Source: Heterodontus francisci
Lineage: Eukaryota
Assembly: GCF_036365525.1 (NCBI RefSeq)
Contig: NC_090418.1
Span: forward strand, 7,232,304 to 7,296,303
DNA length: 64,000 bases
Direction: 5' to 3'
The translations under genes and the position numbers were made by a program. This document shows, one piece after another, positions 2,020-63,893 of this stretch; within the stretch, counting starts at the first letter, position 1; each line of letters begins with the position of its first letter. Below the pieces are notes generated by a model. That model made no database searches and had not been told where the DNA came from. It saw nothing but the letters and a program-made list of their open reading frames with translations.

Positions 2020-3235
2020 CTGACTGTGCAGCACTCCCTTGGTACTGACCCTGCAACAGTGCAGTGCTCCCTCAGTACTGACCTTCCAACAGTGCGGCAC
2101 TCCCTCAGTACTGACCTTCCAACAGTGCGGCGCTCCCTCAGTACTGACCTTCCAACAGTGCGCACTCCCTCAGTACTGACCTTCGAACAGTGCGGCGCTC
2201 CCTCAGTACTGACCTTCCAACAGTGCGGCGCTCCCTCAGTACTGACCTTCCAACAGTGCGGCGCTCCCTCAGTAATGACCTTCCAACAGTGCAGCGCTCC
2301 CTCAGTACTGACCTTCCAACAGTGCGGCGCTCCCTCAGTACTGACCTTCCAACAGTGCGGCACTCCCTCACTACTGACCTTCCAACAGTGCGGCGCTCCC
2401 TCAGTACTGACCTTCCAACAGTGCGGCACTCCCTCACTACTGACCTTCCAACAGTGCGGCACTCCCTCAGTACTGACCTTCGAACAGTGCGGCACTCCCT
2501 CAGTACTGACCTTCGAACAGTGCGGCACTCCCTCAGTACTGACCTTCCAACAGTGCGGCACTCCCTCAGTACTGACCTTCCAACAGTGCGGCATTCCCTC
2601 AGTACTGACCCTCCGACGGGACAGCTCTTCCTCGGTACTGACCTTCCAACAGTGCGGCACTCCCTCAGTACTGACCTTCCAACAGTGCGGCATTCCCTCA
2701 GTACTGACCCTCCGACGGGACAGCTCTTCCTCGGTACTGACCTTCCAACAGTGCGGCGCTCCCTCAGTACTGACCCTCCAACAGTGCGGCGCTCCCTCAG
2801 TACTGACCTTCCAACAGTGCGGCGCTCCCTCAGTTCTGACCTTCCAACAGTGCGGCGCTCCCTCAGTACTGACCTTCCAACAGTGCGGTGCTCCCTCAGT
2901 ACTGACCTTCGAACAGTGCGGCACTCCCTCAGTCCTGACCTTCCAACAGTGCGGCACTCCCTCAGTACTGACCTTCGAACAGTGCGGCGCTCCCTCAGTA
3001 CTGACCTTCCAACAGTGCGGTGCTCCCTCAGTACTGACCTTCCAACAGTGCGGTGCTCCCTCAGTACTGACCTTCCAACAGTACGGTGCTCCGTCAGTAC
3101 TGACCTTCGAACAGTGCGGCGCTCCCTCAGTACTGACCCTCTGACAGTGCAGCACTCCCTCAGTACTGACCCTCTGACAGTGAGGCGCTCCCTCAGGACT
3201 GACCCTCTGACAGTGCTGCACTCCCTCAGTACTGG
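2020..3235. repeat. 33-bp minisatellite expanded inside a SINE
   Basis: Unit CAGTGCGGCGCTCCCTCAGTACTGACCTTCCAA, about 36 copies; explains the overlapping repetitive ORFs at 1938-3248. Confidence 0.95.
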
Positions 3236-12315: not shown

Positions 12316-13599
12316 GTAATCGCCAGATCATCTGTTTTCCCGATGGTGGTTGAGGGACGAATATTGGCTCCAGGGCAAACTTCCCCTGCTCGTCTTTGAA
12401 ATAGTGGCCACAGGATCTTTTCTTTTAATTTCACTTCGACACCTTGTTCAAAAGACAGCACCTCTGACATTGTAGCACTCCTTCAGCACTGCACTGCAGT
12501 GCCAGCCTAGATATTTGGATTTAAGTTGCTGGAGTGGGATTTGAAACCACAATCTTCAAACCCGGACACAAGAGTGATGCTAATTAAGCCATGGCTGGAA
12601 AACCACCAGACCTACTGCTTTCTCACCCAATGTATTGCTGAAGACGATTATTAATTGCACACGAATTTCTTCCGGGTTTCTTGGGTTACCGGTCCATGTC
12701 TATATTTCCCAATTTTTAATCATATTTTCGGTTAACAATTACAAAAAACGGTTAGCACTTAACGGAGCTCCATACTGCAGATTGAGTTGCAAGTTGAATA
12801 AAAATACTGCCTGGAGTTTTCACATGTTGTGCATCTGTGCTATCTGGGTGTAATCGACTGAAACAGCACAATTTAAAACGTAAGTGAGTAAAGTCCACAA
12901 CAACTTGCACTCAAGTTCCCACAATCTTTTACTTTGGTTCTTAAAGTCAATTCACCCCAAGCAGTCCCCACCCAGCAGAACTGACTGTGTGGGCCTTTCA
13001 GGGGTGTTCGTCACACTGTGCCCAGAACCTCGGGCGCACAGGCTCCCCCGGTCATATTAATCCATCATTGGTGACCTGCAGCTCCAGTCGCCAGCAGTCG
13101 ACTGAAGACTCACTCAGTTCTGCCTCCAATACTGAGGCTGCAACTGCTTTAATTGTCAGTCGTGGCTCAGTTAGCCTTAGTCAGAACTTATGGGTTCATG
13201 TCCCACTTCAGAGTCCCAGTTGACACTAAGTGGGTGCTGCACGGTTGGAGGTACTGGATAAGCTGTTAAACTGAGGCCCCAACTACCTATGAGGTAGATG
13301 TAAAATATTCCCTGACATTACCTCAAAGAAGACCAGGAGAATTCTCCCTGGTGTCCTGGCCAATACTTATCCTTCATTCCAGCATCACTACAATTGACTA
13401 TCTGTTCATTATCTCATTGTGGGAGCTTTCTGTGCACAGATTGGCTGCAGTGCTTTTTACATAACAACAGTGACTGCACTTCAAAAAGTACCTGATTTGG
13501 CACTTTGGGATATCCTGAGGTCATGAAAATATAAATGCAAGCCTTTTTTAAAAATTACTTGTAATTCAGTTTGAATAAGTTCAGTCAATTGATCTTTTT

Positions 13600-34465: not shown

Positions 34466-35711
34466 GGGCAGGTACAGCACGGGGTTAGAGACAGAATAAA
34501 GCTCCCTCTACACTGTCCCCATCAAACACTCCCAGGACAGGTACAGTACGGGGGTAAAAAAACCAAAAAAAAAACGGGGTTAGATACAGAGTAAAGCTCC
34601 CTCTACAAAAAAAAAAACGGGGTTAGATACAGAGTAAAGCTCCCTCTACACTGTCCCCATCAAACACTCCCAGGACAGGTACAGCACAGGTTAGATACAG
34701 AGTAAAGCTCCGTCTACACTGTCCCTATCAAACACTGAATGGAAAACACTTGTGGTAAACAAAGTCTTGTTGTGCAATTGTAGGAAGGAATGGAGTTGGT
34801 GTTAGATAAGTTTGAAACAAAAAAAAAAACGGGGTTAGATACAGAGTAAAGCTCCCACTACACTGTCCCCCATCAAACACTCCCAGGACAGGTACAGCAC
34901 AGGGTTAGATACGGAGTAAAGCTCCCTCTACACTGTCCCGTCAAACACTCCCAGGACAGGTACAGCACAGGTTAGATACAGAGTAAAGCTCCGTCTACAC
35001 TGTCCCTATCAAACACTGAATGGGAAAAACTTGTGGTAAACAAAGTCTTGTTATGCAATTGTAGGAAGGAATGGAGTCGGTGTTAGATAAGTTTGAAACA
35101 AAAAAAAACGGGGTTAGATACAGAGTAAAGCTCCCTCTACACTGTCCCATCAAACACTCCCAGGGCAAGTACAGCACGGGGTTAGATACAGAGTAAAGCT
35201 CCCTCTACACTGTCCCATCAAACACTCCCAGGGCAAGTACAGCACAGGGTTAGATACAGAGTAAAGCTCCCTCTACACTGTCCCATCAAACACTCCCAGG
35301 GCAAGTACAGCACGGGGTTAGATACAGAGTAAAGCTTCCTCTACACTGTCCCCATCAAACACTCACAGGACAGGTACAGCACGGAATTAAAAAAGAAAAA
35401 AAAACACCAAAAAAATTTTTAAAAGAAGAAAAAATGGGGTTAGATACAGAGTAAAGCTCCCTCTACACTGTCCCCATCAAACACTCCCAGGACAGGTACA
35501 GTACGGGGTTAGATACAGAGTAAAGCTCCCTCTACACTGTCCCCATCAAACACTCCCAGGACAGGTACAGCACGGGGTTAGATACAGAGTAAAGCTCCCT
35601 CTACACTGTCCCCATCAAACACTCCCAGGACAGGTACAGCACGGGGTTAGATACAGAGTAAAGCTCCGTCTACGCTGTCCCCATCAAACACTCCCAGGAC
35701 AGGTACAGCAC
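34466..35711. repeat. 69-bp minisatellite, left part, interrupted by five A-tailed inserts
   Basis: Unit CGGGGTTAGATACAGAGTAAAGCTCCCTCTACACTGTCCCCATCAAACACTCCCAGGACAGGTACAGCA, roughly 15 full or partial copies. Confidence 0.95.
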
Positions 35712-36395
35712 TGGGATTGGCTGGTCAATTTGGAGCACTTCCTGCCAGCAATCAGGGGGAGCAGCTGCACCTGTGTTGCAGCAATTGCAGAGTGGAGACT
35801 GGAGTAATTGGAGAAAGTGGAGAGGTGAATGCAGAGTGGAGAGAAACCATCAAGAAAGGCTGCAATTTTTCTGGAAAGGTGGGTGTCAGGGCACCTGAAA
35901 GACTCTGAAGTTTAAACTGTTTGGGGGAGGGAGAAGAGGCCTGAAGACTCAGGGGTGGGGCAGCCAAATCCAGTAGGGGCCCCTGTGTTTGTATTGGTGT
36001 TTGCACACAGGGAGCTCCCTCCCCACCCCAACTGCCTGCTCGGGACAGCTGGAGTTGCCCGGGTGAAGACTGTCTTGTTAAAATCAGAAGAGGAGAGTAC
36101 CGGGCGGCTCCAGCCGTCCCGGGCGAAGAAGCCTCCCCCAACTGGAAGACAACAAACAGTTTTGGACTAATTGTTATAAAGGTGCTCCAACTGGCAGTTG
36201 GATCAAACATCCTTTTCAGCCTTTCTCTCCCTTCCTCCACTCAGTCGCCTCAGTCACCTATCCTCCCCATTTCCTTTACCATCCTACCCCATCCTCCTCT
36301 ACTCCCACTCCACCTTGTTTAAAGTTTGCTTTTTTTTTTAAAAAATTGTGTAAATTTGTTTTGTTTCTTGGGGGTGGACGTAGCTCTTAGACCCC

Positions 36396-38435
36396 ATGGC
36401 AAGCCCCTCTTCGCCGGTGGCGGGGCCTTCCCGGTCATATGCTGCTGCGGCTGCTGCAGCTGCACCTGTTGCCCCGTCACCTTTTGCTTTATTAACAACG
36501 AAGCATGGGGTCAAGAGCTACGTCCACCCGAACATGACTATAGAGGCATGCGTGAAAGCAATGGCCGAGGTTGTCGGCCCCTCGGCCATTGTTGCAGCCT
36601 CTAAAATGTACGGGAAGGCAGTGTTTTTCCTGAAGACCGAGCGGGCGGTGTCCCTGGCTCTGAGCAAGGGGCTCACCGTGGGCGGGACCTTTCTGCCAGT
36701 GGACCCCCTGGAGGCCACTGCGCAAAGGCTCATTTTATCCAATGTCCCGCCCTTCATCCCTGGTGAGCTCCTCCTTCCCCACCTGCACCATCTGGGGGAG
36801 GTAAAGACGGGGCTCACCCCAGTCCCGCTCGGTCTTCGGGAGAACAGCCTCCGACACGTCTACTCCTTCCGCCGCCAGTTATTCATGCAGCTGGCGCGGG
36901 AGGAGGTGACAGAGGGCCACTTCAATGTAGAATTCCAGGGGACGGCCTACCGCGTCTTCTGGACCTTGGACGGGGTGCGGTGCCATGTCTGTAAGGGGGT
37001 GGGGCATGTTCGTAAGAACTGCCCCAACCTCGCGGCTGCCAACTCCAACTCAGCGGCCCAGGGTGGCGACGCTGCACCTCCTCCCACCCCCACTACACCA
37101 CCACCAGATACCATTCAGTCGGTACCGGAGGCTGTGGTTTTCACGGCCTCCGGCAGGGAGGGGGGTGACCGTCCAAGTGGAAGGAAGGCGCGGAGGAGAA
37201 ATAAACATCGAGAGGCGCGTCCCCTGGATATCGTGACACTACCCGAGCCTGAGCTCAGCCCAAGGCCCGATCTCGGGAAGTCAACTTGCCCCAGGGCTGG
37301 GCTCAGGCCCAGGGTGAATAAAAAAAAGGAGAGTGTGGAGGTGGAGGCCTCTGATGATATGGAGGTCTCTGAGCCTCCGCACACAACTGGGAAAAAGAGG
37401 AGAAGGCACCCCTCCACAGAGGTAACAAGGGGCCCTGAGGCGCAGGGCCCATCTGTTGGAGGGGAGCTGTCTCCTGTTTCGGGTCCCCAGGTTTCCCCTA
37501 CCGCCACCACCAAGGCTGCAAAGTCCGGGCAGGTGCTCCCAATTCCTCAGGATGGAGGGAAGGGGATGGCCCCGGTACATGAGGCCCCTACTGAAGGAGT
37601 AAGTGGGGCCCTGCTTGTGGTGGGGGAGCCTGGGGAAGCCGCCCATTCTGCCACTGCTACTGGGTCGGGTGTCCTGAATGAAGGGGAGGGCGAGGCCCCA
37701 GAGGGTCGGGCCTCCCAGCCGGAGTCCACCACCAACCAGGAGACACCCGACCCAGTTATAACTGAGAATGCTGCCCCACCTGCTGGGCCTGTGGGTGCTG
37801 GCGGAGCGGGAGATAGCCTCCTCCCTCCGCCTCCAATCTCGGCTCCGGCTGGTTTCCCGGAGTCGGGAACTTCTGTCTCCCCTGGACCACTCATTGCCCT
37901 GGGGACGGAGGTGGAGGGGGGTCCTGAGCCGCTGGTGCCTACAGGCTCCAGTTTCACAATAGAACCCAGAGAGGACTCCTCCGCCATCGATCCTGGGGGT
38001 GGGATCGTGACGGAGGCGGGACCAGCTGGCGCGGCCGGGACGTCCGCCCCACAGTGTGTGGTGGATGTGTTGGCCGCTGGCGGTGACGACCCGGAGGAGG
38101 ATGGGGATTCGGTGCGGGGCACGGAGGATGATCTTGATTCCATCGCCAGTGAGGTGGTGGAGTCCCTCGTGCCTCCCACCGAATCTCCTCTCATCCCCAC
38201 GGCGGAACTCCGGGATTTCCTCGCGGCTTGCAGGGGTTGCCGCAATAAAGTTCAGCTGGCCCTCGACCGTTGGTCGAATCTGGCGCTGATCATCCAGTCC
38301 GTCCGTGCCGCCCTTAAGATAGCGGGCAAGCGCGCGGACGTGAAACTGGTTGAGAGGCGCCGTTTTAATGTGTTCCTCAATGGGTTGCTGGGGGAGTGGA
38401 GGGCCAGGTGCACTTCCACTCCCTCCTCACAGTGA
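36396..38435 (+). CDS. Tx1 ORF1 protein (RNA-binding, zinc knuckle), 679 aa
   Basis: Tx1-type N-terminus (IVAASKMYGKAVFFL, LILSNVPPFI, HVYSFRRQ), CCHC knuckle CHVCKGVGHVRKNC, long Pro/Gly/Glu-rich linker. Confidence 0.92.
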   Translation: MASPSSPVAGPSRSYAAAAAAAAPVAPSPFALLTTKHGVKSYVHPNMTIEACVKAMAEVVGPSAIVAASKMYGKAVFFLKTERAVSLALSKGLTVGGTFLPVDPLEATAQRLILSNVPPFIPGELLLPHLHHLGEVKTGLTPVPLGLRENSLRHVYSFRRQLFMQLAREEVTEGHFNVEFQGTAYRVFWTLDGVRCHVCKGVGHVRKNCPNLAAANSNSAAQGGDAAPPPTPTTPPPDTIQSVPEAVVFTASGREGGDRPSGRKARRRNKHREARPLDIVTLPEPELSPRPDLGKSTCPRAGLRPRVNKKKESVEVEASDDMEVSEPPHTTGKKRRRHPSTEVTRGPEAQGPSVGGELSPVSGPQVSPTATTKAAKSGQVLPIPQDGGKGMAPVHEAPTEGVSGALLVVGEPGEAAHSATATGSGVLNEGEGEAPEGRASQPESTTNQETPDPVITENAAPPAGPVGAGGAGDSLLPPPPISAPAGFPESGTSVSPGPLIALGTEVEGGPEPLVPTGSSFTIEPREDSSAIDPGGGIVTEAGPAGAAGTSAPQCVVDVLAAGGDDPEEDGDSVRGTEDDLDSIASEVVESLVPPTESPLIPTAELRDFLAACRGCRNKVQLALDRWSNLALIIQSVRAALKIAGKRADVKLVERRRFNVFLNGLLGEWRARCTSTPSSQ

Positions 38436-38467
38436 GCTGTTGGTGACGGGTTTTAAGTACCTTTGAC

Positions 38468-41400
38468 ATGAAGATAACCATAGCCAGCCTCAACATCAAC
38501 GGCAGCAGAGGGGCTCACCGCAGATTTCACAATCTCTCAGTCCTTAGGGAAGGGAGATACGCGGTGAGCTTTCTGCAGGAAACCCACACCGTTCCGGGAG
38601 ACGAAGCCACCTGGCTCCTGGAGTGGCAGGGTGGGGTCTACATGAGTCACCTCACCCCTATTTCTAGTGGGGTGGCTATCTTGTTGGCCCCGACTTTTCA
38701 GCCGGAGATCTTGGGGGTCAAGGAGCTAGTGCCGGGCCGCTTGCTCCACCTCGCCGTTCGCCTGGGTAGCGTGCCGCTCCACTTTGTGAATGTGTACGCG
38801 CCCAGGCCCGGCGCTTTGCAAGCGCGCTTCTTTGAAGAAGTGTCCGCTCTCTTGAGCTCCATCGATAGCGGCGAGTGCATCATCCTCGGGGGGGATTTTA
38901 ACTGCACCCTGGAGGTGGGGGATCGCTCCGGTCCCCAGCGCGGCCAAGCGTCGGTGGAGAAGTTGAGGGGACTGATCAGCTCCCTTAACTTGGTGGACGT
39001 CTGGCGGAATCTCCATCCCGACTCCAGCGCCTTCACGTGGAGGTCTGGAGGAGGGGGGTCGCGAATCGACCGCCTCTACATTTCGCAGGCGTACGTCTCC
39101 CGCGTTTCGGCGGCCTCCATGCGGCTGGTGCCGTGCTCGGACCACCGCCTGGTGTGGGCGGAGTTCACTCCGCTCCGCACGCGGGCGGGGTCCGCGTACT
39201 GGCACTTTAACAACCGGCTGCTGGAGGACGTGCGATTTCGGGACTCGTTCTGTCGATTCTGGGCCGACTGGAGAAGGAAGCAGGGGGGCTTCCCCTCCTT
39301 GAGGCTATGGTGGGATGTGGGCAAGACTCACATCCGCGTCTTCTGTCAGGAGTACGCGAAGGGGTCGACCAAAAGGCGGGAAGCCGAGATCGGGCGCCTT
39401 GAGAGGGAGGTGCTCGACTTGGAATCCCGCCTCGGTCATGCCGTCGCGGACCCGGCCCTGTGGCAGGCGTACAAAGAGAAGAAGGGCGCGCTGAGGAACC
39501 TGCAGCTCATAGGGTCCCGAGGCGCGTACGTGAGGTCGCGGATTCAGATCCTGCAAGATTTGGACCGCGCCTCACCCTTCTTCTACTCGCTGGAAAAATG
39601 GCGGGGGGTCCGTAAGCAGCTCGTCGAGCTGCTGGCCGACGACGGATCCTCCATCACGGATCCGGAGGGAATGGGCCTCCTGGTCCGGACGTATTACAGT
39701 GCGTTGTTCTCTCCGGATCCGTCCAGCGAGGATGCGCGCAGAGTTTTGTGGGAGGACCTGCCGCAGGTCAGCCCGGAGGGCGCCGAAGGATTGGAGGCTC
39801 CGCTCACGTTGGCGGAGCTGACTGGCGCCCTCCACCAGCTCTCGAGGGGCAAATCCCCAGGGCTGGATGGGTTGACCGTGGAGTTCCTCAGGGCGTTCTG
39901 GGACGTCCTGGGGGACGATTACGCGCGGGTCCTGGGGGAAAGCCTGGCGACCGGGGAGATGCCCCTCTCGTGGCGCAGGGCGGTCATCGTCCTGCTGCCG
40001 AAGAGGGGCGATCTTCGCCTGCTTAAAAACTGGCGTCCGGTCTCCCTCCTCAGCACGGATTATAAGATCTTTGCCCGGGCTATGTCTACCCGCCTGGGCT
40101 CCGTGCTGGCCCACATGATCCACCCCGACCAGTCCTACACGGTCCCGGGCCGGTCCATCCAGGACAACATCCACCTGGTCCGGGACCTGATCCATCTTTC
40201 CCAGAGGACTGGTCAGTCGGTCGCCTTTCTCTCCCTCGATCAGGAGAAGGCGTTCGACAGGGTGGATCACGATTACCTTTTCGGGACTCTGCGCGCTTTC
40301 GGACTCGGGCCGCATTTCGTGGCCCGGGTCCGACTTTTATACGCCGCCGCAGAGTGTCTAGTCAAAGTTAACGGGTCCTTGACGGCGCCCCTTCGATTTG
40401 GGAGAGGAGTGCGTCAGGGGTGCCCCATGTCCGGCCAATTGTATACCATCTGCGTGGAGCCCTTCCTGTGCCTGCTTCGCAGGAGCTTGACGGGATTGGC
40501 TCTGCGCGAGCCGGCCATGCGGGTCGTCCTCTCGGCTTACGCCGACGACGTGCTCCTCGCAATCACAGATCCCGTTGACTTGCGGAGGATGCGCGACTGC
40601 CAGCAGACCTTTTCTGCCGCGTCCTCCGCGAGGATCAATTGGGAGAAATGTTCCGGACTCCTGGTTGGTCAGTGGCGGGTGGACTCCCTGCCGGAGGAGA
40701 TGACACCTTTTGCGTGGAGCACCACGCACCTCCTCTATCTGGGAGTCCACCTTAGCCCCGCTGAGGAAGCCTGGCCGGCAAACTGGCAGGAGTTGGAGGC
40801 GAAAGTCACCGCTCGGCTGGGGCGCTGGACAGGACTGCTCCGAGTGCTTTCCTACAGGGGCCGAGCGTTGGTCATAAACCAACTGGTGGCCTCCATGCTG
40901 TGGTACCGGTTGGTCACTTTGGCCCCGCCCCCTGTATTTGCCACCAAGATCCAGAAGAAACTCGTCGATTTCTTCTGGGGCAAGAGGAAACACTGGGTCT
41001 CTGCCGCGGTCCTGAGTCTCCCGATCGAGGAGGGCGGTCAGTCGCTGGTGTGCGTCCGCACCCAGGCTGCGACTCTCCGCCTTCGGACCCTGCAGAGATA
41101 CCTGTACGTCGAGCGTCCTCCCAGATGGTGTGCGCTGGCGACGTATTTTTTCCGCCAGTGTCACTGCCTTCAAGACGACACGCAGCTCCCGGTGGAGTCC
41201 GTTAGCCGCGCCTCTCTGAGGGAGTTGCCTGTCTTTTACCGGGATCTTTTCCGAGTCTGGAACATGGTCGCCTCCAGTCAGGGCGCTCCCCCGCCGGCGG
41301 AGGAGAGCGCCTCGGCTGTCCGGGCGGCCGACTCCGGGGACGGTCCGGCGGGCGGAGGAGTAGCCGAAACCCCCGGGACGCCCCTCACTGCGGGTGGCGA

Positions 41401-42205
41401 GGGGGCTCGGGAGTGCGGAGCGATCCCGGCCGAGCTGACCCCCGCTCGGCCGGAACTGCTCATCGGACCCAGGCCCCGAAACCCTCCTCGGGAGCCGGTC
41501 CCGCACAACCCGAGCCGCCTCTCGGAAATGCCCTCCGTGCCATTCCAATCGGCGCGGAGGGGTTTCCTGTACGGGCTGCTCCTGCACACTCTCCACTTCC
41601 TCGCCCTCGTCAGCCGGCCGGACACGCCCTGGCGGTCCGCGTTGCCATCTGGCGGCGAGGGGAAACCCCGATGGAGGTCTCTCTACGCGGGAGTCTTCCC
41701 CCTTTACATCGGGGACCTGGGGTGGAGGGTGCTGCACAGAGCAGTCCCGTGCAATAGGCTTTTAAGTAGGTTCACGGACTCCCAGGCCACCTGTACTTTC
41801 TGCGGCCTGGACGAGTCCGTGTTCCACATTTATACGGAGTGTGCGAGGTTGCAGCCCCTATTTGAGTATCTGAAGGGGCTGCTCCTCAAATTCTGGCTGC
41901 GCTTCAGTCCCACGCTCCTGATCTTTGGGCACCCGGTGCGGAGGGGCTCGGGCCGGGAGGAGGATCTCCTCGTCGGTCTGCTCCTGGGCCTGGCCAAGGT
42001 GGCAATTCACAGGTCCAGGTTGCGGGCCGTCGGGGGGTCCGTCCTCCCCGATTGCCTGCCCCTCTTCCGCGGTTACGTTCGCGCCCGGGTGTCCCTGGAA
42101 AAGGAGCATGCGGTGTCCGCCGGTACGCTTGAGGCCTTCCGCGACCGGTGGGCACCGCAGGGACTGGAGTGCATCGTCGACGCCGAGAATGGCATTTTAA
42201 TTTGA
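38468..42205 (+). CDS. Tx1 ORF2 protein: APE endonuclease, reverse transcriptase and C-terminal zinc finger, 1245 aa
   Basis: EN motifs SLNING, LQETH, GGDFN, SRIDR, SDH; RT motifs KSPGLDG, NWRPVSLL, LDQEKAFDRV, GVRQGCPMS, YADD, YLG; C-terminal CTFCGLDESVFHIYTEC; no stops or frameshifts. Confidence 0.96.
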   Translation: MKITIASLNINGSRGAHRRFHNLSVLREGRYAVSFLQETHTVPGDEATWLLEWQGGVYMSHLTPISSGVAILLAPTFQPEILGVKELVPGRLLHLAVRLGSVPLHFVNVYAPRPGALQARFFEEVSALLSSIDSGECIILGGDFNCTLEVGDRSGPQRGQASVEKLRGLISSLNLVDVWRNLHPDSSAFTWRSGGGGSRIDRLYISQAYVSRVSAASMRLVPCSDHRLVWAEFTPLRTRAGSAYWHFNNRLLEDVRFRDSFCRFWADWRRKQGGFPSLRLWWDVGKTHIRVFCQEYAKGSTKRREAEIGRLEREVLDLESRLGHAVADPALWQAYKEKKGALRNLQLIGSRGAYVRSRIQILQDLDRASPFFYSLEKWRGVRKQLVELLADDGSSITDPEGMGLLVRTYYSALFSPDPSSEDARRVLWEDLPQVSPEGAEGLEAPLTLAELTGALHQLSRGKSPGLDGLTVEFLRAFWDVLGDDYARVLGESLATGEMPLSWRRAVIVLLPKRGDLRLLKNWRPVSLLSTDYKIFARAMSTRLGSVLAHMIHPDQSYTVPGRSIQDNIHLVRDLIHLSQRTGQSVAFLSLDQEKAFDRVDHDYLFGTLRAFGLGPHFVARVRLLYAAAECLVKVNGSLTAPLRFGRGVRQGCPMSGQLYTICVEPFLCLLRRSLTGLALREPAMRVVLSAYADDVLLAITDPVDLRRMRDCQQTFSAASSARINWEKCSGLLVGQWRVDSLPEEMTPFAWSTTHLLYLGVHLSPAEEAWPANWQELEAKVTARLGRWTGLLRVLSYRGRALVINQLVASMLWYRLVTLAPPPVFATKIQKKLVDFFWGKRKHWVSAAVLSLPIEEGGQSLVCVRTQAATLRLRTLQRYLYVERPPRWCALATYFFRQCHCLQDDTQLPVESVSRASLRELPVFYRDLFRVWNMVASSQGAPPPAEESASAVRAADSGDGPAGGGVAETPGTPLTAGGEGARECGAIPAELTPARPELLIGPRPRNPPREPVPHNPSRLSEMPSVPFQSARRGFLYGLLLHTLHFLALVSRPDTPWRSALPSGGEGKPRWRSLYAGVFPLYIGDLGWRVLHRAVPCNRLLSRFTDSQATCTFCGLDESVFHIYTECARLQPLFEYLKGLLLKFWLRFSPTLLIFGHPVRRGSGREEDLLVGLLLGLAKVAIHRSRLRAVGGSVLPDCLPLFRGYVRARVSLEKEHAVSAGTLEAFRDRWAPQGLECIVDAENGILI

Positions 42206-42357
42206 GTTTTTTTGTTTATTTATCTGTTTTAATAAAGTTATTTTAAAACTGTAAATATGTACATAAAGGGGGCCTGAGGGATAAAGGCCCCCTCGACGTG
42301 AAAAATATAAAAGGGGCCTGGGGTATAAAGGTCACCTTGTAAAAAAAAAAAAAAAAA

Positions 42358-42851
42358 CGGGGGTTAGCTACAGAGTAAAGCTCCCTCTACACTAAAAAAA
42401 AAACAAAAAAAAAAAAAAAAAAAAAAAAAAAACGGGGTTAGATACAGAGTAAAGCTCCCTCTACACTGTCCCCATCAAACACTCCCAGGACAGGTACAGC
42501 ACGGGGTTAGATACAGAGTAAAGCTCCGTCTACGCTGTCCCCATCAAACACTCCCAGGACAGGTACAGCACGGGGTTAGATACAGAGTAAAGCTCCGTCT
42601 ACGCTGTCCCCATCAAACACTCCCAGGACAGGTACAGCACGGGGTTAGATACAGAGTAAAGCTCCCTCTACACTGTCCCCCATCAAAAAAAAAACGGGGG
42701 TTAGATACAGAGTAAAGCTCCGTCTACACTGTCCCCATCAAACACTCCCAGGACAGGTACAGCACGGGGTTAGATACAGAGTAAAGCTCCCTCTACACTG
42801 TCCCCCATCAAAAAAAAAACAGGGGTTAGATACAGAGTAAAACTCCCTCTA
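42358..42851. repeat. 69-bp minisatellite, right part, interrupted by three poly(A) tracts
   Basis: Same unit resumes at CGGGGGTTAG immediately after the Tx1 poly(A) tail. Confidence 0.95.
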
Positions 42852-44654: not shown

Positions 44655-45645
44655 GGATGTGGAAAGAGAGCAGGGCAGTGGGATTAGTTTGGGATTGTTA
44701 CAGGGCTATGGGGAGAGAGTGGGACAGTGGGACTAGTATGGGATTGATACAGGGCTATGGGGAGAGTGCGGGGCAGTTGGATTAGTTTGGGATTGATACA
44801 GGGCTATGGGGAGAGAGCAGAGCAGTGGGATTAGTTTGAGATTGATACAGGGCCATGGGGAGAGAGAGCAGGGCAGTGGGATTTGTTTGGGATTGATACA
44901 GGACTATGGGGATAGTGCGGGGCAGTGGGATTAGCTTGGGATTGATACAGGGCTATGGGGTGAGAGCGGGGCAGAGGGATTAGTTTGGGATTGATACAGG
45001 GCTATGGGGAGAGAGCGGGGCAGTGGGATTAGCTTGGGATTGATACAGGGCTATGGGGTGAGAGCGGGGCAGAGGGATTAGTTTGGGATTGATACAGGGC
45101 TATGGGGAGAGAGTGGGGCAGTGGGATTAGTTTGGGATTGATACAGGGCTATGGGGAGAGAGTGGGGCAGTGGGATTAGTTTGGGATTCATACAGGGCTA
45201 TGGGGAGAGAGTGGGGCAGTGGGATTAGTTTGGGGATTGATACAGGGCTATGGGGAGAGAGCGGGGCAGTGGGATTAGTTTGGGATTGATACAGGGCTAT
45301 GGGGTGAGAGCGGGGCAGAGGGATTAGTTTGGGATTGATACAGGGCTATGGGGAGAGAGTGGGGCAGTGGGATTAGTTTGGGATTGATACAGGGCTATGG
45401 GGAGAGAGTGGGGCAGTGGGATTAGTTTGGGATTCATACAGGGCTATGGGGAGAGAGTGGGGCAGTGGGATAAATTTGGGAATGATACAGGGCTATGGGG
45501 AGAGAGCGGGGCAGAGGGATTAGTTTGGGATTGTTACAGGGCTATGGGGAGAGAGTGGGGCAGTGGGATAAATTTGGGATTGATACAGGGCTATGGGGAG
45601 AGAGCGGGGCAGAGGGATTAGTTTGGGATTGATACAGGGCTGTGG
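44655..45645. repeat. 49-bp G-rich minisatellite, short array
   Basis: Unit GGGCTATGGGGAGAGAGTGGGGCAGTGGGATTAGTTTGGGATTGATACA, about 20 copies. Confidence 0.95.
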
Positions 45646-51379: not shown

Positions 51380-52475
51380 CAGTGGAACTGTACACCAGTG
51401 AGGGTCAGTGCGTGTGGAACTGTACCCCAGTGAGAGTCAGTGTGTGTGTGGAACTGTACCCCAGTGAGAGTCAGTGCGTGTGGAACTGTACACCAGTGAG
51501 AGTCAGTGCGTGTGGAACTGTACCCCAGTGAGAGTCAGTGCGTGTGGAACTGTACCCCAGTGAGAGTCAGTGTGTGTGTGGAACTGTACCCCAGTGAGAG
51601 TCAGTGTGTGTGGAACTGTACCCCAGTGAGAGTCAGTGTGTGTGTGGAACTGTACCCCAGTGAGAGTCAGTGCGTGTGGAACTGTACCCCAGTGAGAGTC
51701 AGTGTGTGTGTGGAACTGTACCCCAGTGAGAGTCAGTGTGTGTGGAACTGTACCCCAGTGAGAGTCAGTGTGTGTGTGGAACTGTACCCCAGTGAGAGTC
51801 AGTGTGTGTGGAACTGTACCCCAGTGAGAGTCAGTGTGTGTGTGGAACTGTACCCCAGTGAGAGTCAGTGTGTGTGGAACTGTACCCCAGTGAGAGTCAG
51901 TGTGTGTGTGGAACTGCACCCCAGTGAGAGTCAGTGTGTGTGGTACTGTAACCCCAGTGAGAGTCAGTGTGTGTGGAACTGTACCCCAGTGAGAGTCAGT
52001 GCGTGTGGAACTGTACCCCAATGAGAGTCAGTGTGTGTGGAAATGTACCCCAGTGAGAGTCAGTGTGTGTGTGGAACTGTACCCCAGTGAGAGTCAGTGT
52101 GTGTGGAACTGTACCCCAGTGAGAGTCAGTGTGTGTGTGGAACTGTACCCCAGTGAGAGTCAGTGTGTGTGTGGAACTGTACCCCAGTGAGAGTCAGTGT
52201 GTGTGGAACTGTACCCCAGTGAGAGTCAGTGTGTGTGGAACTGTACCCCAGTGAGAGTCAGTGCGTGTGGAACTGTACCCCAGTGAGAGTCAGTGTGTGT
52301 GGAACTGTACCCCAGTGAGAGTCAGTGCGTGTGGAACTGTACCCCAGTGAGAGTCAGTGCCTGTGGAACTGTACCCCAGTAAGAGTCAGTGCGTGTGGAA
52401 CTGTACCCCAGTGAGAGTCAGTGCGTGTGGAACTGTACCCCAGTGAGAGTTAGTGCGTGTGGAAATGTACCCCAG
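51380..52475. repeat. 32/34-bp minisatellite
   Basis: Unit GTGGAACTGTACCCCAGTGAGAGTCAGTG(C/T)GT with a variable (GT)n spacer. Confidence 0.95.
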
Positions 52476-52854
52476 TTGTTTTGCACCCATGTATATCCAG
52501 CTTCACTCTCAGACTCATATCTCCCTGCCTTCTGACGCACAGGGGTATAAAGGAGCATGGAAGTACGCAGATGTATGGAGTTAGGTTAAAGATCAGCAAT
52601 GATCTGACTGAGTGGCGTAACGGGCTCGAAGGGCTGAATGGCCTACTCCTGTCCCAATGCTGATTCATCTGCCTCTTTGAGAGATGTGGGTCATCCAGGA
52701 CTATATCTGTTTTAATTCCACACACCACATCCTGTTGATTTGATGTGGTGCACAGTACAATGCACATGACATCAGCTCAATCCATGAGCTGAACCATTTG
52801 CTCACTGTTACTGAAACTCATCAGGAGGAAGTCTGAATTAAAAAGAAAACAAAC

Positions 52855-56974: not shown

Positions 56975-59900
56975 AGATTGATACAGGGCTATGGGGAGAG
57001 AGTGGGGCAGTAGGATTGGTGGGATTGTTGCAGAGCTATTGGGAAGAGCACAGGGCAGTGGGATTACTTTGGGATTGATACTGGGCTATGGGGAGAGAGC
57101 AGGGCAGTGGGATTAGTTTGGGATTGATACAGGGCTATGGGGAGAGAGCAGGGCAGTGGGATTAGTTTGGGATTGATACAGGGCTATGGGGAGAGAGCGG
57201 GGAAGTGGGATTACTTTGGGATTGATACAGGGGTATGGGGAAAGAGTGGAGCAGTGGGATTACTTTGGGATTGATACAGGGCTATGGGGAGAGAGTGGGG
57301 CAGTGGGATTAGTTTGGGATTGTTACAGGGCTATGGGGAGAGAGTGGGGGAGTGGGATTAGTTTGGGATTGATACAGGGCTATGGGGAGAGAGCGGAGCA
57401 GTGGGATTAGTTTGGGATTGTTACAGGGCTATGGGGAGAGAGTGTGGGAGTGGGATTAGTTTGGGATTGATACAGTGCTATGGGGAGAGAGTGTGGGAGT
57501 GGGATTAGTTTGGGATTGATACAGGGCTATGGGGAGAGAATGTGGGAGTGGGATTAGTTTGGGATTGATACAGGGCTATGGGGAGAGAGTGGAGCAGTGG
57601 GATTAGTTTGGGATTGATACAGGGCTATGGGGAGAGAGTGGGGCAATGGGATTAGTTTGGGATTGATACAGGGCTATAGGGAGAGAGTGGAGCAGTGGGA
57701 TTAGTTTGGGATTGATACAGGGCTATGGGGAGAGAGTGGAGCAGTGGGATTAGTTTGGGATTGATACAGGGCTATGGGGAGAGAGTGGAGCAGTGGGATT
57801 AGTTTGGGATTGTTACAGAGCTATAGGGAGAGAGTGGAGCAGTGGGATTAGTTTGGGATTGATACAGGGCTATGGGGAGAGAGTGGAGCAGTGGGATTAG
57901 TTTGGGATTGATACAGGGCTATGGGGAGAGAGTGGGGCAATGGGATTAGTTTGGGATTGATACAGGGCTATAGGGAGAGAGTGGGGCAGTGGGATTAGTT
58001 TGGGATTGATACAGGGCTATGGGGAGAGAGTGGAGCAGTGGGATTAGTTTGGGATTGTTACAGGGCTATAGGGAGAGAGTGGAGCAGTGGGATTAGTTTG
58101 GGATTGTTACAGGGCTATAGGGAGAGAGTGGAGCAGTGGGATTAGTTTGGGATTGTTACAGGGCTATAGGGAGAGAGTGGAGCAGTGGGATTAGTTTGGG
58201 ATTGATACAGGGCTATAGGGAGAGAGTGGAGCAGTGGGATTAGGTTGGGATTGTTACAGGGCTATAGGGAGAGAGTGTGGGAGTGGGATTAGTTTGGGAT
58301 TGTTACAGGGCTATGGGGAGAGAGTGGAGCAGTGGGATTAGTTTGGGATTGATACAGGGCTATGGGGAGAGAGTGGGGCAATGGGATTAGTTTGGGATTG
58401 ATACAGGGCTATAGGGAGAGAGTGGAGCAGTGGGATTAGTTTGGGATTGATACAGGGCTATGGAGAGAGAGTGGAGCAGTGGGATTAGTTTGGGATTGTT
58501 ACAGAGCTATAGGGAGAGAGTGGAGCAGTGGGATTAGTTTGGGATTGTTACAGAGCTATAGGGAAAGAGTGGAGCAGTGGGATTAGTTTGGGATTGTTAC
58601 AGAGCTATAGGGAAAGAGTGGAGCAGTGGGATTAGTTTGGGATTGATACAGGGCTATAGGGAGAGAGTGGAGCAGTGGGATTAGTTTGGGATTGTTACAG
58701 GGCTATGGGGAGAGAGTGGAGCAGTGGGATTAGTTTGGGATTGTTACAGGGCTATAGGGAGAGAGTGGAGCAGTGGGATTAGTTTGGGATTGTTACAGAG
58801 CTATAGGGAAAGAGTGGAGCAGTGGGATTAGTTTGGGATTGATACAGGGCTATAGGGAGAGAGTGGAGCAGTGGGATTAGTTTGGGATTGTTACAGGGCT
58901 ATGGGGAGAGAGTGGAGCAGTGGGATTAGTTTGGGATTGTTACAGGGCTATAGGGAGAGAGTGGAGCAGTGGGATTAGTTTGGGATTGTTACAGGGCTAT
59001 GGGGAGAGAGTGGGGCAGTGGGATTAGTTTGGGATTGATACTGGGTTATGGGGAGAGCGTGGAGCAGTGGGATTAGTTTGGGATTGATACAGGGCTATGG
59101 GGAAAGAGTGGGGTGTGGGATTAGTTTGGGATTGATACAGGGCTATAGGGAGAGAGTGGGGCAGTGGGATTAGTTTGGGATTGATACAGGGCTGTGGGGA
59201 GAGTGCGGGGCAGTGGGATTAGTTTGGGATTGATACTGGGTTATGGGGAGAGCGTGGAGCAGTGGAATTAGTTTGGGATTGATACAGGGCTATGGGGAGA
59301 GAGTGGGGCAATGGGATTAGTTTGGGATTGATACAGGGCTATGGGGAGAGAGTGGAGCAGTGGGATTAGTTTGGGATTGATACAGGGCTATGGGGAGAGA
59401 GTGGGGCAGTGGGATTAGTTTGGGATTGATACAGGGCTATGGGGAGAGAGTGGAGCAGTGGGATTAGTTTGGGATTGATACAGGGCTATGGGGAGAGAGT
59501 GGGGCAATGGGATTAGTTTGGGATTGATACTGGGTTATGGGGAGAGAGTGGGGCAGTGGGATTAGTTTGGGATTGATACAGGGCTATGGGGAGAGAGTGG
59601 GGCAGTGGGATTAGTTTGGGATTGATACAGGGCTATGGGGAGAGAGTGGAGCAGTGGGATTAGTTTGGGATTGATACAGGGCTATGGGGAGAGAGTGGGG
59701 CAATGGGATTAGTTTGGGATTGATACTGGGTTATGGGGAGAGCGTGGAGCAGTGGGATTAGTTTGGGATTGATACAGGGCTATGGGGAGAGAGTGGGGGA
59801 GTGGGATTAGTTTGGGATTGATGCAGGGCTATGGGGAGAGAGTGGGGTGTGGGATTTGTTTTGGTTTGTTCCAGGGTTATGGGGAGAGAGTGGAGCAGTG

Positions 59901-62900
59901 GGATTAGTTTGGGATTGATACAGGGCTATGAGGAGAGAGCAAGGCAGAGGGATTAGTTTGGGATTGATACAGGGCTATGGGGAGAGAGCAGGGCAGTGGG
60001 ATTAGTTTGGGATTGATACAGGGCTGTGGGGAGAGAGTGGGGCAGTGGGATTTGTTTTCGATTGTTACAGGGCTATGGGGAGAGAGTGGGGGAGTGGGAT
60101 TAGTTTGGGATTGATACAGGGCTATGGGGGAGAGAGTGGGGCAGTGGGATTTGTTTTCGATTGTTACAGGGCTATGGGGAGAGAGTGGGGGAGTGGGATT
60201 AGTTTGGGATTGATACAGGGCTATGGGGAGAGAGTGGAGCAGTGGGATTTGTTTGGGATTGATAGTGGGGAGAGAGCAGGGCAGTGGGATTAGTGTGGGA
60301 TTGATACAGGGCTATGGGGAGAGAGCAGGGCAGTGGGATTAGTGTGGGATTGATACAGGGCTATGGGGAGAGAGCAGGGCAGTGGGATTTGTTTGGGATT
60401 GATACAGGGCTATGGGGAGAGAGTGGGGGAGTGGGATTAGTTTGGGATTGATACTGGGTTATGGGGAGAGCGTGGAGCAGTGGGATTAGTTTGGGATTGA
60501 TACAGGGCTATGGGGAAAGAGTGGGGTGTGGGATTAGTTTGGGATTGCTACTGGGTTATGGACAGAGAGTGGGGTGTGGGATTAGTTTGGGATTGATACT
60601 GGATTATGGGGAGAGCGTGGAGCAGTGGGATTAGTTTGGGATTGATACAGGGCTATGGGGAGAGAGTGGGGTGTGGGATTAGTTTGGGATTGATGCAGGA
60701 CTATGGGGAGAGAGTGGGGCAGTGGGATTAGTTTGGGCTTGATACAGGGCTATGGGGAGAGCGCGCGGCAGTGGGATTAGTTTGGGATTGATACAGGGCT
60801 ATGGGGAGAGAGTGGGGTGTGGGATTAGTTTGGGATTGATACTGGATTATGGGGAGAGCGTGGAGCAGTGGGATTAGTTTGGGCTTGATACAGGGCTATG
60901 GGGAGAGCGCGCGGCAGTGGGATTAGTTTGGGATTGATACAGGGCTATGGGGAGAGAGTGGGGTGTGGGATTAGTTTGGGATTGATGCAGGACTATGGGG
61001 AGAGAGTGGGGTGTGTAATTAGTTTGGGCTTGATACAGGACTATGGGGAGAGAGTGGGGCAGTGGGATTAGTTTGGGATTGATACAGGACTATAGGGAGA
61101 GAGCAGGGCAGTGGGATTAGTTTGGGATTGATGCAGGGCTGTGGGGAGAGAGTGGAGCAGTGGGATTAGTTTGGAATTGATACAGGGCTATAGGGAGAGA
61201 GCAGGGCAGTGGGATTTGTTTGGGATTGATACAGGGCTATGGGGAGAGAGTGGGGGAGTGGGATTAGTTTTCGATTGTTACAGGGCTATGGGGAGAGAGT
61301 GGGGGAATGGGATTAGTTTGGGATTGATACAGGGCTATGGGGAGAGAGTGGGGGAGTGGGATTAGTTTGGGATTGATACAGGGCTTTGGGGAGAGAGTGG
61401 GGCAGTGGGATTTGTTTGGGATTGATACAGGGCTATGGGGAGAGAGTGGGGGAGTGGGATTAGTTTGGGATTGATACAGGGCTTTGGGGAGAGAGTGGGG
61501 CAGTGGGATTTGTTTGGGATTGATACAGGGCTGTGGGGAGAGAGCGGGGCAGTGGGATTAGTTTGGGATTGATAGTGGGGAGAGAGTGGAGCAGTGGGAT
61601 TAGTTTGGGATTGATACAGGACTATGGGGAGAGAGCGGGGGAATGGGATTAGTTTGGGATTGATACAGGGCTATGGGGAGAGAGTGGGGGAGTGGGATTA
61701 GTTTGGGATTGCTACAGGGCTATGGGGGAGAGAGTGGGGGAGTGGGATTAGTTTGGGATTGCTACAGGGCTATGGGGGAGAGAGTGGGGGAGTGGGATTA
61801 GTTTGGGGATTGATACAGGGCTGTGGGGAGAGAGTGGGGCAATGGAATTAGTTTGGGATTGATACAGGGCTATGGGGAGAGAGCGGGGGAATGGGATTAG
61901 TTTGGGATTGATGCAGGGCTATGGGGAGAGAGCGGGGGAATGGGATTAGTTTGGGATTGATACAGGGCTATGGGGAGAGAGCGGGGGAATGGGATTAGTT
62001 TGGGATTGATGCAGGGCTATGGGGAGAGCGCGCGGCAGTGGGATTAGTTTGGGATTGATACAGGGCTATGGGGAGAGAGTGGGGTGTGGGATTAGTTTGG
62101 GATTGATGCAGGACTATGGGGAGAGAGTGGGGTGTGTAATTAGTTTGGGCTTGATACAGGACTATGGGGAGAGCGTGGAGCAGTGGGATTAGTTTGGGCT
62201 TGATACAGGGCTATGGGGAGAGCGCGCGGCAGTGGGATTAGTTTGGGATTGATACAGGGCTATGGGGAGAGAGTGGGGTGTGGGATTAGTTTGGGATTGA
62301 TGCAGGACTATGGGGAGAGAGTGGGGTGTGTAATTAGTTTGGGCTTGATACAGGACTATGGGGAGAGAGTGGGGCAGTGGGATTAGTTTGGGATTGATAC
62401 AGGACTATAGGGAGAGAGCAGGGCAGTGGGATTTGTTTGGGATTGATAGTGGGGAGAGAGCAGGGCAGTGGGATTAGTTTGGGATTGATGCAGGGCTGTG
62501 GGGAGAGAGTGGAGCAGTGGGATTAGTTTGGAATTGATACAGGGCTATAGGGAGAGAGCAGGGCAGTGGGATTTGTTTGGGATTGATACAGGGCTATGGG
62601 GAGAGAGTGGGGGAGTGGGATTAGTTTTCGATTGTTACAGGGCTATGGGGAGAGAGTGGGGGAATGGGATTAGTTTGGGATTGATACAGGGCTATGGGGA
62701 GAGAGTGGGGGAGTGGGATTAGTTTGGGATTGATACAGGGCTTTGGGGAGAGAGTGGGGCAGTGGGATTTGTTTGGGATTGATACAGGGCTATGGGGAGA
62801 GAGTGGGGGAGTGGGATTAGTTTGGGATTGATACAGGGCTTTGGGGAGAGAGTGGGGCAGTGGGATTTGTTTGGGATTGATACAGGGCTGTGGGGAGAGA

Positions 62901-63666
62901 GCGGGGCAGTGGGATTAGTTTGGGATTGATAGTGGGGAGAGAGTGGAGCAGTGGGATTAGTTTGGGATTGATACAGGACTATGGGGAGAGAGCGGGGGAA
63001 TGGGATTAGTTTGGGATTGATACAGGGCTATGGGGAGAGAGTGGGGGAGTGGGATTAGTTTGGGATTGCTACAGGGCTATGGGGGAGAGAGTGGGGGAGT
63101 GGGATTAGTTTGGGATTGCTACAGGGCTATGGGGGAGAGAGTGGGGGAGTGGGATTAGTTTGGGGATTGATACAGGGCTGTGGGGAGAGAGTGGGGCAAT
63201 GGAATTAGTTTGGGATTGATACAGGGCTGTGGGGAGAGAGTGGGGCAATGGAATTAGTTTGGGATTGATACAGGGCTATGGGGAGAGAGCGGGGGAATGG
63301 GATTAGTTTGGGATTGATACAGGGCTATGGGGAGAGAGCGGGGGAATGGGATTAGTTTGGGATTGATGCAGGGCTATGGGGAGAGAGCGGGGGAATGGGA
63401 TTAGTTTGGGATTGATGCAGGGCGGTGGGGAGAGAGCGGGGGAATGGGATTAGTTTGGGATTGATACAGGGCTGTGGGGAGAGTGTGGGGCAATGGAATT
63501 AGTTTGGGATTGATACAGGCCTATGGGGAAAGAGTGGGGGACTGGGATTAGTTTGGGATTGATACAGGACTATGGGGAGAGTGTTGCGCAGTGTGATTAG
63601 TTTGGGATTGATGCAGGCCTGTGGGGACAGAGTGGGGGAGTGGGATTAGTTTAGGATTGATACAGG
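56975..63666. repeat. 49-bp G-rich minisatellite, 6.7-kb array
   Basis: Same unit as 44655-45645, well over 100 copies, with variant blocks. Confidence 0.96.
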
Positions 63667-63893
63667 GCCCCTAACAGCTCTGGTGATTTCCTGTTCTGTT
63701 GAGCATTTGATAACTATTTGGACAGGAGAGTACCGGGATTCTTTGTTTCCTGAGCTATTGACGTTGGGTTTAGTGTGATGTGTGTTGTATCTATCAGCCA
63801 GGCTCCAGCTCATGGCCCTCATTTCCCTCTTCCCTTTACTTTTACGAGGTTCTCTGTCATTTCGTAACCAAAGAAGTGTTTACAAGAACTTAC

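What the first reader, a model, noticed from the sequence alone, without database searches (positions are those of the whole stretch)
34737..35108. A 93-nt foreign A-tailed insert at the same site, not from the resident element, later duplicated
Seen: GAATGGAAAACACTTGTGG...GATAAGTTTGAAAC-A11 (34737-34829) and a near-identical copy (35018-35108) end at the canonical junction but do not match the 3' UTR of the full-length Tx1. The preceding units share the same private variants (cacaggttag, ctccgtct, ccctatc), so this is one insertion duplicated by unequal exchange. One frame reads LW*TKSCCAIVGRNGVGVR*, loosely like the resident ORF2 end RWAPQGLECIVDAENGILI*. Inference: either the 3' tip of a second Tx1 family using the same target, or a cellular RNA mobilised in trans.
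Basis: partly seen in the sequence, partly recalled or inferred. Interest (0 to 1): 0.7.

Follow-up and report, generated by a model that had tools for sequence, protein, structure and literature searches.

The report
Stray genomic snippet in Tx1 target
A 79-base piece of unrelated, apparently low-copy DNA carrying an A-tail sits exactly where a shark Tx1 jumping gene inserts, likely copied there from a cellular RNA by that element's enzyme and then duplicated: a small, probably non-functional example of a known kind of retrotransposon accident.

Summary
The insert is real: two copies (34737-34829, 35018-35108; 4 of 82 bases differ) end in an A-run at the same phase of the 69-bp repeat as the intact Tx1 element. 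They share one 5' junction, so this is one event, later duplicated.

The 'second Tx1 family' reading is not supported. No frame scores above chance against a profile of Tx1 ORF2 ends (best 3.0 bits, reached by 153 of 2000 controls; resident end 31 bits). In 1 of 4 public contig sets, one contig matched 34737-34815 (5 differences in 79). It continues with ordinary sequence, no A-run and no 69-mer. So 79 nt come from inside a longer, apparently low-copy locus, and the 14-nt A-rich tail was added.

Best reading (0.5): an A-tailed non-Tx1 RNA reverse-transcribed in trans at the Tx1 site. Rivals are capture onto an abortive A-only insertion (five such here, and the insert has no poly(A) signal) and orphan transduction. 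The donor is unidentified and RNA was not tested. The mechanism type is known from L1 and crocodilian Tx1/SINEU, so interest is modest.

The parts
34737..34815 (+). Donor-derived 79 nt, copy 1
   Evidence: matches one contig of run X2 with 5 differences and no gaps; the match stops at 34815
34816..34829 (+). A-rich tail of copy 1 (14 nt, one C), absent from the matching contig
35018..35096 (+). Donor-derived 79 nt, copy 2 (4 differences from copy 1)
35097..35108 (+). A-rich tail of copy 2
34687..34736 (+). Truncated 69-mer unit before copy 1; about 18 nt of the unit are missing at the join; same variants as 34968-35017
34968..35017 (+). Truncated 69-mer unit before copy 2
34481..35711 (+). Left part of the 69-bp tandem array (target), with three further A-only or A-rich inserts at the same phase
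35712..42357 (+). Resident full-length Tx1-clade element: ORF1 36396-38435, ORF2 38468-42205 (endonuclease + RT), short 3' UTR, A-tail; candidate source of the enzyme
42358..42851 (+). Right part of the 69-bp array, with three A-only inserts (two of them duplicates of one another)

Best explanation
A 79-nt piece of an unrelated, apparently low-copy genomic locus sits with an added A-tail at the Tx1 insertion site of a 69-bp repeat, likely because Tx1 ORF2 protein nicked the target and reverse-transcribed an A-tailed non-Tx1 RNA in trans. Steps: (1) every A-tailed insert in the two array halves ends at one phase of the unit (shown), so the endonuclease nicks there (inferred); (2) priming on an A-tail and copying of 14 tail bases plus 79 nt (structure shown, RNA template inferred); (3) early stop and end-joining with about 18 nt of target missing (structure shown, mechanism inferred); (4) later duplication of the block by unequal exchange in the array (shared junction and variants shown, mechanism inferred). 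It is most likely non-functional.
For: Nine A-run junctions in the arrays all end at (C/T)[A]GGGG(G)TTAG. They make seven independent events, one being the intact Tx1. The one outside match continues without an A-run, so the tail is not encoded at that locus. Only 1 contig was laid in 4 runs, 630 nt long at depth 7.7, which is not the pattern of a young many-copy element end. There is no Tx1 ORF2-end signal and no Rfam match over the insert. Precedent: Tx1-Mar is inferred to trans-mobilise SINEU into its own target (PMC4494074). 5'-truncated L1 insertions show 0-20 bp target-site deletions (PMC11702581).
Against: None of 13 poly(A)-signal hexamers (list recalled) occurs in either copy, whereas the resident UTR has several, so this does not look like an ordinary mRNA end. 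Five of seven independent events at this site are A-only or A-rich, which gives a ready alternative source for the tail. There is no target-site duplication. No RNA run was laid, so transcription and tailing of the donor are untested. The donor was seen in 1 of 4 runs only, in an organism that may not be the window's species. No control lay of a true Tx1 3' end was possible (one call). Which enzyme acted is inferred from the site alone.
Confidence: 0.5

Rival explanations
1. The tail and the 79 nt have different sources. An abortive A-only Tx1 insertion picked up the 79 nt at its 5' join by template switching or end-joining capture of an RNA or DNA fragment, or a fragment was later patched into a unit that already had an A-run.
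For: Five A-only or A-rich events lie at the same site, three with missing target as here. There is no poly(A) signal in the insert. Two-template and templated insertions are described for L1 (passages of PMC11702581; PMC13174262; bioRxiv 2024.08.27.596794).
Against: The templated insertions in bioRxiv 2024.08.27.596794 typically come from within 15 bp of the site, whereas this donor is nowhere else in the 64 kb. It needs two steps instead of one.
Confidence: 0.27
2. Orphan 3' transduction: a Tx1 copy upstream of the donor locus read through into flanking DNA, was tailed there, and only the last 79 nt were copied.
For: This gives target-site specificity without needing trans action. Orphan transductions are a common L1 product (705 in the cohort of bioRxiv 2024.08.27.596794).
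Against: There is no poly(A) signal where the read-through would end. Nothing positive was seen: the matching contig holds only about 5 nt upstream of the insert start (inferred from record positions 547-625 of 630).
Confidence: 0.13
3. The insert is the 5'-truncated 3' tip of a second Tx1 (or other L1-clade) family that uses the same target.
For: It has an A-tail at the Tx1 site. Each of the three forward frames has a loose resemblance to ORF2 ends by eye. Several Tx1 families can share one target (PMC4494074).
Against: The best frame scores 3.0 bits against 8-45 bits for the 63 sequences of the profile; 153 of 2000 window controls and 133 of 2000 shuffles reach it. Allowing frameshifts adds nothing (29 of 400 and 46 of 400 controls reach it). 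The one matching contig has neither A-run nor target after the match.
Confidence: 0.07

Closest known systems
SINEU families mobilised by crocodilian Tx1-Mar (Kojima 2015, PMC4494074; passages and sections 15, 16, 19 read)
   Same: Non-Tx1 sequence placed at the preferred target of a Tx1-clade element, with trans action inferred from the shared target
   Different: SINEUs are many-copy families with U1/U2 snRNA heads. This is one event duplicated in place, with no Rfam match and an apparently low-copy donor.
L1 processed pseudogenes, orphan transductions and solitary poly(A) insertions (bioRxiv 2024.08.27.596794 and PMC11702581; passages read)
   Same: A-tailed, severely 5'-truncated copy of non-element sequence at the endonuclease site, with a short target deletion and A-only events beside it
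   Different: Site-specific Tx1 in a shark-like genome rather than mammalian L1; target is a 69-bp tandem repeat; no poly(A) signal; parent transcript unknown.
Xenopus laevis Tx1L (inserts in Tx1D; statement read in PMC4494074)
   Same: Resident ORF2 is 50% identical over 100% of its length to the Xenopus Tx1 149-kDa protein; both sit in a repeat target
   Different: This concerns the presumed helper element, not the insert; the target sequence differs.

Membership tests
5'-truncated Tx1-clade copy | Similarity to the ORF2 C-terminus or the 3' UTR of a Tx1 element | tested here: not met
   3' UTRs of other families were not available, only the resident's
5'-truncated Tx1-clade copy | Other genomic copies end at the same base in an A-tail and target | tested here: not met
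   1 contig in 4 runs, continuing without A-run; host genome not held, so weak for absence
5'-truncated Tx1-clade copy | A-tail at the family's target phase | tested here: met
Retrocopy (processed pseudogene fragment) | A-tail not encoded at the parent locus | tested here: met
   one contig of one organism
Retrocopy (processed pseudogene fragment) | Insertion at the endonuclease site of a LINE | tested here: met
   same phase as the full-length element and five other events; nicking itself not shown
Retrocopy (processed pseudogene fragment) | Target-site duplication | tested here: not met
   about 18 nt of the unit missing; the register is ambiguous in a tandem array; short deletions are known for truncated L1
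Retrocopy (processed pseudogene fragment) | Poly(A) signal shortly before the tail | tested here: not met
   0 of 13 hexamers in either copy; 4 donor differences were not listed, so the donor's own signal is unseen
Retrocopy (processed pseudogene fragment) | Matches the 3' end of a transcript | not tested
Retrocopy (processed pseudogene fragment) | Intron loss | not testable with these tools
   79 nt matching without gaps
SINE (SINEU-like) | Small-RNA-derived head | tested here: not met
   no Rfam match over the insert up to E 10; no unusual fold, z 0.34
SINE (SINEU-like) | Many independent insertions | tested here: not met
   two copies share one junction; 1 contig in 4 runs
Orphan 3' transduction | Source element upstream of the donor locus | not testable with these tools
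   contig ends about 5 nt upstream; no host genome

The most novel reading that the evidence does not exclude
This shark Tx1 needs little more than an A-tail to prime, so the 69-bp arrays work genome-wide as traps that collect A-only stubs and 3' ends of germline RNAs, including RNAs tailed without a poly(A) signal. The arrays would be a readable fossil record of what a site-specific LINE enzyme grabs in trans.
Probability: 0.25. Interest if true: 0.55.

Novelty: new member of a known kind. Interest (0 to 1): 0.3.

Why it matters
The insert itself is probably non-functional. If confirmed, it shows a site-specific Tx1 enzyme copying non-element, low-copy sequence into its target, i.e. relaxed template choice in a vertebrate Tx1. 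So far I found that inferred only for SINEU in crocodilians. Because all events fall at one phase of a known repeat, a census of junctions in one assembly would measure cis preference directly. I found no paper on this for sharks in the held library (searches returned 0; one search returned 5 general papers, one of them read in passages). Repbase and most subscription journals were not searched.

Tried and rejected
Host genome search: none held.

Exact scans with insert motifs: 0 hits in metagenome contigs, viral contigs and prokaryote genomes. Scans for the A-run/69-mer junction, meant as a census of other inserts: 0 hits in all three collections. These collections are not shark genomes, so the blanks say little.

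Run search: best share 0.49. That equals the share of words lacking any donor base (172 of 342, 0.50), so shares were not used as evidence. Runs X3, X13 and X14 gave 0 contigs, which the tool says can be false.

Coding-donor idea: the one listed difference in the contig (34782) falls in the stop of the frame starting at 34739, and by hand that frame shows no stop in the 30 loose letters. But the peptide read with X found nothing in Pfam, PDB, the protein collection or 272 Tx1-related proteins (best E 2.2). About 36 open codons arise by chance in roughly 18% of frames (hand estimate). Left open; no language-model look-up of this peptide was obtained.

Local templated copy: no third match in the window. 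Structured RNA: none. Unit-derived peptides next to Tx1 in fetched proteins: 0 of 270. Earlier scan notes by sequence or place: none. Terminal inverted repeats around the array: none among the 25 longest of 66 pairs shown. The hit at 12743 to my junction pattern has no 69-mer behind it and was dropped from the count (10 hits, 9 kept).

Full report
Observation. The two inserts are at the stated coordinates. Copy 1 is 34737-34818 plus A11; copy 2 is 35018-35099 plus A9. They differ at 4 of 82 bases (95% interval about 1-12%). They lie 281 nt apart, start after the same base of a truncated unit, and the 50 nt before them are identical. Two of the three 'private' variants are private; CTCCGTCT also occurs in 4 other units. 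One insertion followed by a block duplication is therefore well supported; unequal exchange is the inferred mechanism. There is no third copy in the window and no likeness to the resident element (176 of 200 shuffles score as well against the whole element, 139 of 200 against its 3' end).

Setting. The insert lies in a 69-bp tandem array (23 unit matches, none expected by chance). The array is split by a full-length element at 35712-42357 with two intact ORFs. ORF2 has endonuclease and RT domains and is 50% identical over its full length to the Xenopus Tx1 149-kDa protein. It is 93% identical (325 of 350) to part of a protein named for Heterodontus francisci, so the window is shark-like. No whole genome is held.

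Junction census. My junction pattern gave 10 hits; 9 lie in the arrays, and 1 at 12743 has no unit behind it and was dropped. All nine end at the same phase of the unit, within one or two bases. Two pairs are duplicates, leaving seven events: one full-length Tx1, five A-only or A-rich stubs, and this insert. Three of the stubs lack part of the unit before the tail, as does the insert (about 18 nt). In a tandem array this could equally be read in another register. The site thus behaves as a repeatedly used target (phase shown; nicking by Tx1 inferred).

Is it a second Tx1 end? I collected relatives of the ORF2 C-terminus; 64 of 270 proteins reached the end. A profile from 63 ends (the resident among them) gave the resident end 31.1 bits. 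153 of 2000 window stretches and 133 of 2000 shuffles reached 3.0; for copy 2, 397 and 390 of 2000 reached its best. A second profile without the resident, allowing frameshifts, gave 11.5 against 35.6, reached by 29 of 400 and 46 of 400 controls. The resemblance is at chance level. A very divergent family or a pure 3' UTR is not excluded by this test.

Where does it come from? The run search listed 24 runs with a best share of 0.49, which repeat-only words explain. I laid 4 of the 24 (X2, X3, X13, X14; contigs of four organisms) on 34737-34829 at 80% likeness. One contig of X2, 630 nt at depth 7.7, matched 34737-34815 with 5 differences and no gaps. It then ran on for at least 255 letters, of which the 30 shown hold no A-run and no 69-mer. 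The other three runs gave 0, which the tool warns may be false. So the donor-derived part is 79 nt from inside a longer sequence, and the last 14 nt are an added tail. A single long contig in a run whose records average under 100 nt suggests low copy number; this is an inference, with no depth baseline and no control lay. Organism A probably is not the window's individual, since no contig at 99% or better was laid. What the donor is remains unknown: protein, family, structure and RNA-family searches were blank.

Mechanism. Most likely (0.5), Tx1 ORF2 protein primed at its target on the A-tail of a non-Tx1 RNA, copied 93 nt, stopped, and the ends were joined with loss of target; the array later duplicated the block. 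Shown: the tail at the shared phase, a donor without tail, the truncated unit, the duplication. Inferred: RNA template, enzyme identity, trans action. Against it, neither copy has any of 13 poly(A)-signal hexamers (list recalled) while the resident UTR has several, and A-only stubs are the commonest event here. Capture onto such a stub (0.27) and orphan transduction (0.13) remain live; a second Tx1 family is at 0.07.

Comparison with what is known. Kojima 2015 (PMC4494074; passages and sections 15, 16, 19 read; supplements not opened) infers that Tx1-Mar mobilises SINEU into its own target, and lists Tx1 families that target transposons, microsatellites, snRNA genes and satellites. For L1, passages of bioRxiv 2024.08.27.596794 (its supplements are closed) list orphan transductions, processed pseudogenes, solitary poly(A) tracts and templated insertions. 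Passages of PMC11702581 give 0-20 bp target deletions for truncated insertions and two-RNA insertions. Passages of PMC13174262 cover template switching, and passages of PMC3747384 cover relaxed versus stringent RNA recognition. The insert works like a truncated retrocopy. I do not file it as a processed pseudogene, because target duplication and poly(A) signal were tested and not met and the parent transcript is untested. It is not a SINE. Searches for the unit sequence, for Tx1 with cartilaginous tandem repeats and for Tx1 retrocopies in sharks returned 0 papers. Other papers were seen as search listings only. An earlier AI note (e1-7940688) reports another shark-like Tx1 aimed at a repeat; I did not check it.

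Verdict. Real, not the end of a second Tx1 family on present evidence, and most likely a one-off capture of unrelated sequence by Tx1 machinery. It is a new instance of a known kind, interest 0.3. The bolder reading, that these arrays trap RNA ends genome-wide, has probability about 0.25 and is directly testable by a junction census.

Noticed in passing
window 35712-42357: Full-length Tx1-clade element with both ORFs intact, inserted nearly blunt in a 69-bp tandem repeat; I found no paper naming this target.
   Followed up: partly
window 34556-34574, 34607-34617, 42394-42432, 42685-42694, 42810-42819: A-only stubs at the target phase, several with part of the unit missing; no partial Tx1 3' UTR copies are present in these arrays.
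   Followed up: partly
window 35385-35434: 50-nt A-rich insert at the target phase that contains ATTAAA near its start; either a decayed tail or a second foreign 3' end.
   Followed up: no
run X2, record 1: The matching contig appears to end only about 5 nt upstream of the insert's 5' junction; unexplained, possibly chance.
   Followed up: no
window 35438-35711: The 69-bp unit is 23 codons and one + frame stays open across all units; a likely source of spurious gene calls.
   Followed up: no
window 36372-36388 and 36513-36529: Perfect 17-nt inverted repeat bracketing the ORF1 start codon of the resident element.
   Followed up: no
window 44665-45645, 56976-63668, 2026-3234, 51382-52476: Other minisatellites: two arrays of one 49-bp unit with strong G skew, a 33-bp array and a 32/33-bp array.
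   Followed up: no
window 34744-34750: Copy 1 repeats the last 7 nt of the preceding unit 7 nt into the insert; copy 2 does not. Possibly chance.
   Followed up: no
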